Shown here: piece by piece, positions 9,501 through 12,500 of the stretch
Numbering within the stretch: the first letter of the stretch is position 1
Layout of the letters: each line of letters begins with the position of its first letter
Source of the DNA: Prorocentrum cordatum
Lineage: Eukaryota
Reading direction: 5' to 3'
Length of the DNA: 64,000 nt
Assembly (NCBI GenBank): GCA_963575745.1
Contig: CAUYUJ010000237.1
Span: 62,001-126,000 of the forward strand
Made by a program: the position numbers and the translations under genes
The notes under the pieces: generated by a model
The model's input: the letters and a program-made list of their open reading frames with translations, nothing else
Database searches by the model: none
Told to the model about the DNA's origin: nothing

Positions 9501-12500
9501 GCGCCTCGCAAGCCTCGGTCCAGCACTGGACCCACGGCTCGCGCGCCTTGGACCACAGCCTCGCGACGTGCGGGAGCAGGCCGATGACCCTGTCGCCAGC
9601 AACCTTCTTCGGCAAGAGGGCGCCGATGGTCAGCAGGAGCTGGTGCGGCCAGCACTGGAACACCTCGCATGTGTTCAGGAGGACTGCCAGCCCGTCGAGG
9701 GCGACCAGGGGCAGGCGCTCCAAGTCCGTCGCCGTGAGCCTGTCGGCGCCCATCGCGGCGTTGGGCTTGAGCAACCTGCCAGCATCCTTCAGCTGCTGGC
9801 CCGTGAGGTCTGGCAACCTCTCGCTCCGCACCCGCTCACGAATATGATCGAACAAAATGTGCAGCTCAGAGAGGTCGTCCTGCATCGGTGGACTCCAGAC
9901 TTTCTGCCAATGCAAACCCTTGGCCTCTAGAATATCCTTGGGGCGCTGAATGGTGGGCGACTCCAGCTTCAGCACATCTGGCGCTGCTGGCTGCGATTTG
10001 ATATACCTATGCAGACATGAAGCTGCCACCTGCGTCTCCACCCAGCCCCTGAACTCTGAAATTGACCGATCCACCGATCTAGCCTGGCTCCGCTTGGCAA
10101 TCCGTTCACTGACAGAAACACCTGCCTTCAGCAACTCGTCGGAGCAGCCTGGGAGGTCGCCAAGAAGAGCAAGCCACTGCTGCCAAGAGAAATGATACCC
10201 TGGCCGTGCAACTCGATGCCCCTGCTCGGGGGCTGACTGGTGCAAGCTGGTGCCCGCTGCCGCCAAAACGGCCCGCTGCCTCTCCCCATGGCAGCGGGCC
10301 CGACGACGAGGGCAAGTGTGAAGCAACCGTGCTGCCTCCAAAACGACACCTGCGCGAAACCTGGGGGGCATCCGCGCGTGGTGCGCCCAAGGACCTGACC
10401 GAGGCCGAGCTCCAGGACCTGTCCATGGACACGTCCCAGGACACGATCACGGTCTCGGTCGAGGCCCTGGTCAAGTCCAAGTTCCGGGCCTTGCGCGAGC
10501 GCCCGGTCATGGCCTGGGTCACGGTCAAGTACACGGCCAAGGGCTATGTCGCGACCCTGTCCAAGGCCAAGGTCTCGGTCACGACCAAGTTCGCGTCCAA
10601 GACCGCGGGCGTGTACGAGGACGAGACCAAGATCGTGACCAAGGTCGCGACCATGCACAGGCTGAGAGTGAAGCGTCGATATGGAACTCTCAAGGGTCCG
10701 AGCCCAGCCAGCGCACAAGCCGCTGATGAAGTCACAGTGGCTGGAGCCAACCCGAAAGGCTACGGAGACAGCAGCCGCATCATCGGGGGGTGCTCCCCCG
10801 AAGCGACGAAGCCGCCGGCATTCCTTTGTTGCTTCCAGGGGCTCTCTTCCACGGCATAGGGCACAACATTTCGGGGCAACGCAGGCTTGACCAAACTCGA
10901 TGGCTCAATACCCTCGGGGCCAGGCTGCTCGCTTGAAAAACGAACCCATAGCTGACGCCGATGACGGATGCTCCCAGGGCTTCGAAACGGGGCTAGTGGG
11001 TTCAGGGCTCCTCGCTTGACTGTCCGACTGAGGCAAGCCAGAGGAGGCAGCAAGCGCAGGCGGCGGGTCGAAACCGAAGTTGAGCTCGTTGGCCCACGGG
11101 TCCTCGTCCTCCGATTCGAAGCCCAGGAAATCACCATCATCAGCGTCGCCGATACCTGCCTCGGCTTCGCTAGCGACGGTCTGGGGCGGGGACGACACGA
11201 CCGTGCCACTCTCTAACTCATGCTCATTCTGCTTGACGGGTGCAGGGAACCATTCACGAAATTTGTCATGCCTACGTTCCCATTGCAGCTTGCTTGCAAA
11301 TCCTACGCTGAGCTTTGGCAATGCTACTCTTAGACCCCATCGACAGGCTGCTTATGAGGTCTGGGGGCAGACGGCAGGCGTGCAGGAAGATCCAACTATC
11401 TCGTGTAAAGCTGGGGCCCCTGGGCAGTCAGCTCAAGAGACAAACCTACATGGGGCTTCCAGGGTACATCGACGATTGTACTCAGACTGCGAATGTATGG
11501 TTTTGCCGCTTCTGAGCAAATCACGTAATCAAGATGCGGAGGCTTGTGCTCACTATTGGCAGGTGTGCACGTGTACTCTAAATTCGACCGAAGAATGGCT
11601 CCCCCGATCATTTCCCAAAAAAAAAAATGCGGGCCATATCAGGAGGGGACAAATTCCAACCTCCTATGGCAATCCAAGGCAACTGTAGTGTGGCCAAGAG
11701 GCTTCCAAGCTTACGAAAGCGCACTGACTTAGCCTGCCCGAAACCAACTCCAGAGTGGCCATAAACAATGCACAGCACTAGATTGAAGCCTCTCATGTGA
11801 AGCTGCATGGGCAGGAAACCGTCGAACATGCCGCCGCGTTCCGCTCGAAGTCCATTGGCCGCTCTGGCAGCGTCCAGAACTTGAGCGGGTCTGTGGTTCT
11901 TGGCCAGGAACCACTCTCCTCCCTCGTTGGCCCGCTCCTCCTGGGAAGAGCAAGCCCACCTCGACTTAGGCCTTGCACCGTTGGCACCGAACATGAGATT
12001 CCACCACCGCCAGGTAGTCGCGTGACTGCGTTTGATTGCACAAGTACTCCCATGCCTTGTCCCCCATGCAGGTCACATTCCCACAAAAGACTCGAGTTGT
12101 AGCCCCAGTCTTCGTACCCTCCGAAGGTGGTGACGCTGAAGTAGCCGAGCTTGTACTGGTAGGTGTAGCAGACTGCGCTGCCGTGGGCCCCGTGGCCTCC
12201 GAGCCTAGTCAAAGCTCGGCGTCGCTGCCTGCTGCGCTCGCCGCGACTCCGCCTCCCGAGGGGCAGCCATCGCGAGCGGTGCCACCCGAAGGGCCTCCGC
12301 TGGGGGGAGCACCAGAAGGGGGCTCCCCGCGTGACACGGCCTGAGCAGCAGCGAAGCGTGCCGCGGACAGCCTGGCAGCCTCCTTCTTCATCTTGTCGGC
12401 GACGTCAGGGGTCGGGCTGGCCTCGTCGCCCTGGTCGACCTTGGACTCCTGGGCCTCCTTGGGCTCGCCGTCCCCTGGCTTGCCGTCGTCCCCTTTGCCG

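What the first reader, a model, noticed from the sequence alone, without database searches (positions are those of the whole stretch)
10383..10658. Strand-symmetric (GNNCNN)46 register embedded in frame in a LINE ORF2 linker
Seen: for 276 bp every third base alternates G, C (gcg ccc aag gac ctg acc gag gcc ... gcg acc atg cac), with 91 of 92 positions conforming and no indels. The other four positions of each hexamer vary freely, so no single hexamer dominates and a tandem-repeat finder would probably miss it. The pattern is its own reverse complement and is stop-free in one frame on each strand. In the LINE-sense frame, continuous with the flanking linker (WARTLE...SQP|VH...GR|TTRGCPP), it encodes a strict [GDEAV][LRHQP] dipeptide repeat. 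On the plus strand it reads like a codon-biased protein, and the single exception (TAT, 10545) sits where the pattern would give TAG. Inference: it may be a selected dipeptide-repeat linker between APE and RT, a hypervariable cassette made by position-specific mutagenesis, or an array of GNNC/CNNG sites for a DNA-binding or modifying enzyme. Neutral decay of a hexamer microsatellite should not spare exactly two positions.
Basis: partly seen in the sequence, partly recalled or inferred. Interest (0 to 1): 0.8.

Follow-up and report, generated by a model that had tools for sequence, protein, structure and literature searches.

The report
Locked G/C wobble block in LINE
A 276-base stretch in which every third base strictly alternates G and C while the other bases vary almost freely sits as a copy-specific insertion in a decayed retrotransposon; nothing known explains it, and no reads from the source organism were available to confirm it.

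Summary
At 10383-10658, 91 of 92 third positions alternate G/C with no indel. The longest such run elsewhere in the window is 11, and 12 in shuffles. It is not a microsatellite: 38 of 46 hexamers are distinct, the four free positions carry 1.72-1.82 bits, and units show no similarity at any lag beyond composition. It cannot be a protein-level effect, because 55 codons of four-fold families all obey the parity rule.

The LINE-linker reading fails. The one related contig that bridges the site lacks about 264-266 nt. The frame running through the tract is out of phase with the RT frame. The element has at least 3 frameshifts and 2 in-frame stops.

Only plus-strand frame 0 is non-trivially open. 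Its GC1/GC2/GC3 is 0.53/0.42/0.99, and the single register break is TAT where G would give TAG. That translation has no credible relative in any library searched.

My best reading (about 0.3) is a ready-made, ORF-like block with locked wobble bases, copied into a dead LINE at a microhomology and now a passenger. Rivals are in-situ growth with position-restricted diversification, and non-biological sequence. Raw reads of the source assembly were not available, so its reality is unverified.

The parts
10383..10658 (+). Register tract: 46 units of NNG NNC on the plus strand (GNN CNN on the minus strand). 91 of 92 register positions conform and there is no indel.
10395..10658 (.). Segment of about 264 nt (44 hexamers) missing from the bridging contig of run X2. 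The boundary is ambiguous by a few nt: 10393-10661 is replaced there by 5 letters.
   Evidence: (tables 5 and 5c), read
10383..10392 (.). First 10 nt of the register (GCGCCCAAGG). They are also present in the tract-less contig, so they are ancestral LINE sequence that is already in phase with the register. This could be a seed or a microhomology.
10545..10547 (+). The only register break. It is TAT, the sole TA- codon in a G slot, where G would give TAG in plus frame 0.
10113..10859 (+). Stop-to-stop open frame (248 codons) that contains the tract in frame 0. There is no ATG upstream of the tract. The flanks lack the GC3 bias.
10366..10382 (-). Stretch just downstream of the tract in LINE sense where the window has two extra single nucleotides relative to the X2 contig. 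This shifts the upstream frame out of the RT frame.
   Evidence: table 5c; frame arithmetic (inference)
10662..11351 (-). LINE-sense frame upstream of the tract. It is the same frame as the tract reading and has an in-frame stop at 10905-10907.
8692..10446 (-). Reverse-transcriptase ORF (584 aa, stop to stop). It matches Pfam RVT_1 at E 1.2e-4, below the gathering score. It is 25% identical to a 1615-aa LINE-like protein from residue 146 onward.
6710..7930 (-). RNase H-like ORF at the 3' end of the element (Pfam RNase_H E 3.3e-3, below the cut-off). It is in another frame than the RT and is preceded by an in-frame stop at 7931-7933.

Best explanation
The tract is not part of the retrotransposon's design. 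It is a block of about 264 nt that entered, or arose in, one copy or a small lineage of a LINE. It lies between the presumed endonuclease region and the RT. The copy is now decayed.

The block came into being with its register already in place and with its units already different from one another. It has since drifted neutrally, with 1 change in 92 register positions.

Its only coherent reading is plus-strand frame 0. There it behaves like a coding module whose wobble bases are locked to G, C, G, C. The rule is broken only at a Tyr codon where G would make a stop.

Because every third base is G or C, TAA is impossible in all six frames. TAG and TGA are each confined to one frame per strand. 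As a result the block is open in three frames, including the frame in which LINE ORF2 reads it, so it could ride in the element without truncating ORF2.

My inference is that it was copied from another locus by a template switch. The switch would use the 10-nt identity GCGCCCAAGG on the left and AGG on the right. What enforces the alternation in the source is not known.
For: Shown:
- The register is real and far beyond chance.
- It is not a protein-level effect. All 55 codons of four-fold families obey parity: 21 of 21 in G slots end in G and 34 of 34 in C slots end in C.
- There is no repeat unit. Matches at lags 6-48 do not exceed register-preserving shuffles (p 0.09-0.90). The best local run over all lags has p 0.40. 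Heterogeneity tests at periods 12, 18, 24 and 30 give p 0.10-0.35.
- One X2 contig bridges 10365 to 10662 with a 37-nt anchor. It lacks the tract but keeps GCGCCCAAGG.
- The LINE copy is decayed: at least 3 frame changes and 2 in-frame stops between 6710 and 12072.
- Plus frame 0 has coding-like composition. GC1/GC2/GC3 is 0.53/0.42/0.99, against GC3 of 0.57-0.73 in the LINE ORFs. First positions are 71% purine.
- The one register break falls on the one TA- codon in a G slot, a 1 in 92 coincidence if it were a random hit.

Inferred:
- The three register positions inside the shared 10 nt are in phase, which has roughly a 0.03 chance for an insertion at a random site. This points to homology-guided or seeded entry.
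- One change in 92 positions fits neutral drift at the roughly 2% divergence of the closest X2 contigs (11 differences in 575 nt; 4 in 229).
Against: - No source locus was found, and the window's genome is not held.
- The plus-frame peptide has no credible relative. A word-indexed search of 5.8 billion proteins gave 0 hits. HMMER against 1.84 billion representatives gave 2 hits, both multi-stretch matches to repetitive proteins. The PDB gave E above 1 and Pfam gave none. Back-translated scans of metagenome, viral and prokaryote contigs gave 0 confirmed of 490, 89 and 184 pattern matches.
- The language-model recognition score was 1466, below the 2300 that 91 of 100 known-family proteins reach.
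- A single-sequence AlphaFold2 model had mean pLDDT 50.
- nnGnnC is reported as a conserved avoided codon-pair type in ORFeomes (PMC2585594, passages read). No known coding rule gives this alternation.
- No ATG lies upstream in the frame.
- Stops are not significantly depleted in plus frame 0: 2.2 TAG expected against 0 seen, plus the TAT.
- Similarity of the units to the flank seed in 12-nt phase is suggestive (66 of 176 against 57.0 expected, p 0.069). That favours in-situ growth over import.
- The absence evidence rests on one short contig, from a copy about 9% diverged, in a different data set.
Confidence: 0.3

Rival explanations
1. In-situ origin. The array grew out of the local sequence GCGCCC|AAGGAC. 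It was then diversified by a process that changes only the four free positions of each hexamer, or it was built from the start by a polymerase or reverse transcriptase that copies only two of six template positions faithfully. This would be a eukaryotic analogue of targeted mutagenesis as in diversity-generating retroelements.
For: - The register is continuous with 10 nt of ancestral LINE sequence.
- Units match the seed better in 12-nt phase than when the phase is swapped: 66 of 176 against 48 of 172, shuffle p 0.069.
- TRF finds three weak local repeats of period 12 or 18.
- The right end (GCG ACC ATG CAC) resembles the left seed.
- A reverse transcriptase is encoded by the same element.
- In DGRs a fixed third base with mutated first and second bases (AAC codons) is the known design (PMC7826257, one passage read).
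Against: - No significant internal repeat signal.
- No template-like copy and no (AAGAAC)n or (AAGGTC)n array in the window. A blastn self-comparison of 6000-14000 against the window returned only rows within 13485-13671 (the GAG microsatellite) and none within the tract. (AAGAAC)3 with up to 3 mismatches gave 0 matches. (AAGGTC)3 matched only inside the tract.
- Retention of the majority base differs between positions, and the substitution spectra differ between the two A-rich positions. That is not what one base-specific process would give.
- NNG slots would yield TAG stops.
- The RT is a LINE type in a dead copy.
- The break at the would-be TAG would be a 1 in 92 coincidence unless the plus frame is selected.
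Confidence: 0.2
2. Not biological. The block could be engineered or synthetic DNA, or a data or assembly artefact, present in this assembly but not in the organism's natural genome.
For: - Perfect phase with no indel over 276 nt, statistically independent units and sharp edges.
- A stop avoided in exactly one frame.
- No relative of DNA or peptide in any collection searched.
- The k-mer index found no run holding more than 9% of the words of 10000-11000. Neither of the 2 runs laid covers the tract.
- The scan's earlier findings hold nothing similar.
- The peptide scores like a shuffled sequence.
Against: - The block is in phase with, and shares 10 nt with, natural LINE sequence at its left edge. 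This has roughly a 0.03-0.05 chance for a random insertion point.
- No vector or plasmid similarity.
- I know of no assembler or polishing error that produces a high-entropy period-6 register (own knowledge).
- The base composition of the free positions is position-specific and codon-like rather than uniform.
Confidence: 0.2
3. An array of about 46 sites with 6-bp periodicity, read by a two-fold symmetric DNA-binding or DNA-modifying protein. The protein would contact one G on each strand 3 bp apart (GNNC / CNNG). The register is kept by selection at the DNA level, here or in a source locus.
For: - The constraint is at the nucleotide level and is strand-symmetric.
- Only two positions per hexamer are fixed.
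- The GNNC tetramers are nearly reverse-complement balanced: GGTC 10 and GACC 7, GGAC 5 and GTCC 5, GGCC 6.
Against: - The host element is decayed, and the one related contig that bridges the site lacks the tract, so selection at this locus is unlikely.
- The CNNG tetramers are not balanced: CAAG 11 against CTTG 1.
- It does not explain the break at the would-be TAG.
- No such binding mode is known to me for 46 consecutive sites (own knowledge).
- Nothing here tests binding or modification.
Confidence: 0.08
4. A LINE-sense intron-like insert. On the minus strand the 264-nt segment starts with GT (10658-10657) and ends with AG (10396-10395). It is a multiple of three and is stop-free. Tract-less copies would then be retrocopies of spliced RNA.
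For: The GT...AG ends and the 3n length are read. Removing 10395-10658 gives exactly the length seen in the X2 contig.
Against: - 4 of the 6 nt around the junction differ between the predicted spliced product and the X2 contig.
- The boundary is ambiguous, so GT/AG carries little weight.
- It does not explain the register.
- No RNA data were available.
Confidence: 0.04
5. A selected [GDEAV][LRHQP] dipeptide-repeat linker of LINE ORF2.
For: The tract is open in the frame of the upstream LINE ORF (10662-11351) and lies upstream of the RT.
Against: - It is absent from the bridging contig.
- It is 2 nt out of phase with the RT frame.
- The copy is decayed.
- The GNN/CNN frame is open by construction.
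- The residue classes share only a first codon base.
- The LINE-sense GC3 is 0.53, against 0.57-0.73 in the LINE ORFs.
- The 2 distant full-length relatives have no run of 6 or more such dipeptides (0 of 2).
Confidence: 0.03
6. Neutral decay of an (AAGGTC)n / (GACCTT)n microsatellite.
For: - The majority bases spell AAGG(C/T)C, each at 41-50%.
- The window is very rich in microsatellites.
Against: - About 55% change at four positions against 1% at two positions, with no indel.
- The decayed trinucleotide arrays of the same window lose all positions and shift phase.
- No such hexamer array exists elsewhere in the window.
Confidence: 0.01

Closest known systems
Hexanucleotide (dipeptide-coding) repeats, such as X-Pro linkers and G4C2-type repeats
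   Same: They have the same G..C.. skeleton and a stop-free GNN/CNN frame on both strands. A scan of viral contigs with (GNNCNN)20 returned at least 120 loci holding 129 such tracts. One, L018, is an (E/D-P)n linker of a real ORF. G4C2 repeats giving dipeptide proteins from both strands are in print (PMC8842533, abstract start only).
   Different: Those tracts are true repeats. The mean entropy of their free positions was at most 1.32 bits, with a median of 0.47, in 129 of 129 tracts. They had at most 12 distinct hexamers in any listed tract. The window tract has 1.72-1.82 bits and 38 distinct hexamers of 46.
Variable regions of diversity-generating retroelements
   Same: Fixed scaffold bases are interleaved with positions randomised to any base. 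AAC codons have a fixed third base. A reverse transcriptase is involved (PMC7826257, one passage and abstract start).
   Different: DGRs are prokaryotic or phage systems with a template repeat that differs from the variable region only at adenines. There is no template here. The RT is a LINE type. NNG slots can give stops. The tract is contiguous for 92 codons rather than scattered.
Ambigrammatic ORFs of narnaviruses
   Same: A forward ORF and a codon-aligned reverse ORF are both kept free of stops (PMC8316113 and bioRxiv 10.1101/761890, search listing and abstract starts only). Here plus frame 0 and minus frame 0 are both open over 92 codons.
   Different: As I recall, not read here, the narnavirus property comes from avoiding three codons in an RdRp gene of an RNA virus. 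Here it follows trivially from G or C at every wobble base. The strict alternation has no counterpart.
Codon-pair (context) bias
   Same: It is a rule linking the third bases of adjacent codons.
   Different: Known biases are weak statistical preferences. nnGnnC is listed among the conserved avoided types (PMC2585594, abstract and two passages read). Here 46 of 46 G-to-C steps and 44 of 45 C-to-G steps are obeyed.

Membership tests
Hexanucleotide microsatellite / dipeptide repeat | A recognisable repeated unit, so that neighbouring units are alike | tested here: not met
   38 distinct hexamers of 46. Lag-6 matches are 49 against 55.7 in shuffles. TRF gives only three short rows.
Hexanucleotide microsatellite / dipeptide repeat | Decay hits all positions of the unit and brings indels or phase shifts | tested here: not met
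   1 of 92 register positions changed, against about 55% change at the free positions, and no indel. Decayed arrays elsewhere in the window contrast with this.
LINE ORF2 linker (family feature) | Present at the same site in other copies of the family | tested here: not met
   1 of 1 bridging contigs lacks it. Only one contig, from one related data set, could be examined.
LINE ORF2 linker (family feature) | In the reading frame of both flanking domains (endonuclease upstream, RT downstream) | tested here: not met
   It is in frame with 10662-11351 but 2 nt out of phase with the RT ORF. The endonuclease is not confirmed: no Pfam match and BLASTP E 0.77.
DGR variable region | A template repeat nearby that differs from the variable region only at adenines | tested here: not met
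   No second copy in the 64-kb window. No (AAGAAC)3 with up to 3 mismatches. The rest of the genome is not available.
DGR variable region | DGR-clade reverse transcriptase with accessory protein, in a prokaryote or phage | tested here: not met
   The RT belongs to an element with RNase H and LINE-like relatives. The clade was not placed on a tree.
Protein-coding sequence on the plus strand | Open frame with coding-type composition by codon position | tested here: met
   0 stops in 92 codons. GC1/GC2/GC3 is 0.53/0.42/0.99.
Protein-coding sequence on the plus strand | Homologues, or a confident fold | tested here: not met
Protein-coding sequence on the plus strand | Transcription and translation | not testable with these tools
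   No RNA run could be examined.
Ambigrammatic ORF pair | Forward and codon-aligned reverse frames both open | tested here: met
   This follows trivially from G or C at every third base.
Ambigrammatic ORF pair | Narnavirus RdRp context | tested here: not met
   No RdRp family was found. The context is a LINE.
Structured RNA | More stable than controls of like composition, or a match to a known family | tested here: not met
   z is -3.5 and -5.4 against dinucleotide shuffles, but +0.72 and -0.16 against register-preserving shuffles. Rfam gave only a chance-level hit outside the tract.

The most novel reading that the evidence does not exclude
The tract is natural and is the product of a position-restricted diversifying process in a eukaryote. 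In that process two of every six bases act as fixed anchors (G, then C) and the other four are randomised, possibly by the reverse transcriptase of the element it sits in. Alternatively, it is a coding cassette kept under an unknown 6-bp DNA-level reader. Either way it would be a sequence class not described before, and one invisible to repeat finders.
Probability: 0.2. Interest if true: 0.9.

Novelty: categorically new. Interest (0 to 1): 0.6.

Why it matters
If the tract is natural, some process writes or preserves DNA at exactly two positions of each hexamer over 46 units and leaves the rest free. No known mutational, selective or coding rule does that. It would point either to targeted diversification in a eukaryote or to a new kind of periodic DNA or codon constraint. 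It would also show that standard repeat finders miss a whole class of cryptic registers.

If it is not natural, it is a useful warning about unsupported sequence in assemblies.

Either way, it removes the idea of a functional dipeptide linker in this LINE family.

Tried and rejected
- Whole genome: not held.
- Earlier findings of the scan: nothing by place, by sequence or by words.
- Sequencing runs: 2 runs were listed, with shares of 0.09 and 0.07. No RNA holder was listed. Neither of the 2 runs laid shows any depth over 10414-10615 at 80% likeness or more. Apart from the one bridging contig, this blank says nothing.
- Searches with the LINE-sense reading: the 258-aa minus ORF gave 0 hits. 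The RT ORF in metagenome contigs gave 0 confirmed of 102 pattern matches. The RT ORF against longer proteins gave 2 distant hits, which are uninformative for the site.
- Searches with the plus-frame peptide. All were negative or artefactual.
- DNA of the tract against plasmids and phages: no match.
- RNA structure: rejected after register-preserving shuffles.
- Higher-order periodicity and tandem origin: not significant. Similarity to the seed was p 0.069.
- Host codon usage as a baseline: the 31 long ORFs outside the first LINE that I scanned gave no host gene. They gave only a second RT and RNase H, plus one sub-threshold hit.
- Literature: 'GNNCNN' (5 papers) and 'NNGNNC' (4 papers) matched anywhere in full text, plus one phrase search. 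None describes such a tract. Only listings were seen, apart from PMC2585594. No supplements were consulted.
- An idea that each hexamer encodes a byte was dropped on composition alone, without running a decoding.
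Full report
**Observation.**
- Hexamer position 3 is G in 45 of 46 units and position 6 is C in 46 of 46. 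There is no indel.
- The longest alternating run elsewhere in the 64-kb window is 11. In 50 shuffles the maximum is 12.
- A general scan for any period from 2 to 12 with near-invariant columns among high-entropy columns flags only this tract and one ordinary (GTA/GTC)n array.
- The four free positions carry 1.72-1.82 bits each. 38 of 46 hexamers are distinct.

**It is not a repeat.** I shuffled G-slot codons among G slots and C-slot codons among C slots.
- Matches at lags of 6 to 48 nt are then no higher than expected (p 0.09-0.90). The best local run over all lags has p 0.40.
- Composition does not differ between sub-phases at periods 12, 18, 24 or 30 (p 0.10-0.35).
- TRF sees only three short, weak rows.
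- By contrast, the 129 (GNNCNN) tracts of 15 or more units, in loci fetched from viral contigs with a 20-unit pattern, are all true repeats. The mean entropy of their free positions is at most 1.32 bits, with a median of 0.47. One of them is an (E/D-P)n linker of a real ORF.
- The decayed trinucleotide arrays that fill this window lose all positions alike and slip phase.

**It is not a protein-level effect.**
- In plus frame 0, 21 of 21 four-fold-family codons in G slots end in G and 34 of 34 in C slots end in C. Amino-acid selection cannot fix these.
- In the GNN/CNN frames the fixed base is the first codon base. The resulting classes, G/D/E/A/V and L/R/H/Q/P, have no chemical coherence.
- In the NGN/NCN frames there are 2 stops on the plus strand and 6 on the minus strand.
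- The constraint, or the generating rule, therefore acts on nucleotides.

**Context.** The minus strand carries a LINE-like element.
- An RT ORF lies at 8692-10446 (RVT_1, E 1.2e-4). An RNase H-like ORF lies at 6710-7930 (E 3.3e-3). Both are below Pfam's cut-offs.
- The RT part is 25% identical to a 1615-aa LINE-like protein, starting at query residue 146 and its residue 505. This places the tract upstream of the RT core.
- An endonuclease upstream is not confirmed.
- From 12072 down to 6710 the frames change at least three times. There are two in-frame stops, at 10905-10907 and 7931-7933. This copy is decayed.

**Other copies.**
- The window's genome is not held.
- One k-mer search found two runs with small shares. 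Laid at 80% likeness, coded run X2 holds many contigs of this LINE family on both sides of the tract. The closest show 11 differences in 575 nt and 4 in 229.
- One 549-nt contig joins 10365 to 10662 with 30 other letters between and a 37-nt anchor on the far side.
- Read, those 30 letters match 10367-10392 with one substitution at each end of that stretch and one base fewer, including GCGCCCAAGG. They are followed by 5 letters that replace 10393-10661. That copy therefore lacks about 264 nt of tract (44 hexamers). It also lacks two single nucleotides that the window has in 10366-10382.
- The frame through the tract (10128-10904) and the RT frame (8692-10446) differ by 2 nt, and 266 is 2 modulo 3. 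The tract-less form therefore puts the upstream LINE frame in phase with the RT at this point. This is arithmetic plus my hand translation, so it is an inference.
- The same contig has a further 19-nt skip at 10309-10329, so it is not itself an intact copy.
- Conclusion: the tract is a secondary feature of this copy or lineage, not a family linker. Its being 'in frame' is what any GNN/CNN tract would show.

**What the block looks like on its own.**
- Because every third base is G or C, TAA cannot occur in any frame. TAG can occur only in the NNG/NNC frames and TGA only in the NGN/NCN frames.
- TGA counts in the latter match expectation: 2 against 1.96, and 6 against 6.4, computed from the counts.
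- Plus frame 0 is the only non-trivially open frame. The single register break is the single TA- codon in a G slot, where G would give TAG. Its complement still makes a TAG in minus frame 1.
- Plus frame 0 has GC1/GC2/GC3 of 0.53/0.42/0.99 and 71% purines at first positions. The LINE ORFs have GC3 of 0.57-0.73.
- Against a real gene, the 92-aa peptide has no credible relative in any search. It scores like a shuffled sequence in the protein atlas. It folds at pLDDT 50.
- nnGnnC is a conserved avoided codon pair type (PMC2585594).

**RNA structure.** Both strands fold far better than dinucleotide shuffles (z -3.5 and -5.4). They fold no better than shuffles that keep the register (z +0.72 and -0.16). 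The foldability is a by-product of the register and of the balanced GGTC/GACC, GGAC/GTCC and GGCC tetramers. It is not a specific structure.

**How it got there.**
- The first 10 nt of the register are ancestral LINE sequence and are already in phase. For an insertion at a random point, three in-phase register bases have a chance of roughly 0.03. I therefore favour entry guided by that identity, or growth from it.
- Units resemble the seed GCGCCC|AAGGAC somewhat more in 12-nt phase than out of it (66 of 176 against 57.0 expected, p 0.069). This is suggestive only.
- One change in 92 register positions fits neutral drift since the event, at the roughly 2% divergence of the nearest family contigs. 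No present selection needs to be assumed.

**Verdict.**
- The pattern is real in this sequence and matches no known kind of element.
- The LINE-linker interpretation is not supported, and neutral microsatellite decay is excluded.
- I rank the explanations as follows: a ready-made, ORF-like block with locked wobble bases copied in at a microhomology (0.3); in-situ generation with position-restricted diversification (0.2); non-biological sequence (0.2).
- The decisive data are reads of the source assembly, the whole genome, other copies and RNA. None of these could be reached with the tools here.

Noticed in passing
window 48297-51862 (+): A second LINE-like element on the plus strand. It has an RT ORF (RVT_1, E 2.3e-7) followed by an RNase H-like ORF (E 2.1e-4). 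Its RT is only about 20% identical to the first element's RT.
   Followed up: partly
window 16093-24407, also 28042-28321, 35786-36150, 43592-43922, 53345-53656, 55452-55742, 60299-63991: An extreme density of long, imperfect trinucleotide microsatellites (GAG, GGA, TGA, ATG, AGT, TCC/CTC). They reach about 300 copies, for example (AGT)n at 23503-24407. GC skew reaches 0.73 at 18-20 kb.
   Followed up: partly
window 30694-31749: A tandem array of a 42-nt unit, about 25 copies at 77% matches, with higher-order periods of 127 and 463.
   Followed up: no
window 25938-26687: A tandem array of a roughly 99-nt unit, about 7.7 copies, with 205- and 93-nt variants.
   Followed up: no
window 1-87, 41691-41777, 47834-48168: Recurring short tandem repeats of 11-54 nt built on a CTCTTGG / CCAAGAG core. 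One cluster lies just upstream of the second LINE's RT. The left flank of the tract (CCCAAGG) resembles the core (by eye).
   Followed up: no
window 12209-13771 (-): A 520-aa open frame upstream of the first LINE. It has a long charged, coiled-coil-looking stretch and a Cys/His cluster. It may be an ORF1, but there is no Pfam match.
   Followed up: no
window 44072-44171: A run of 100 N, which is a scaffold gap.
   Followed up: no
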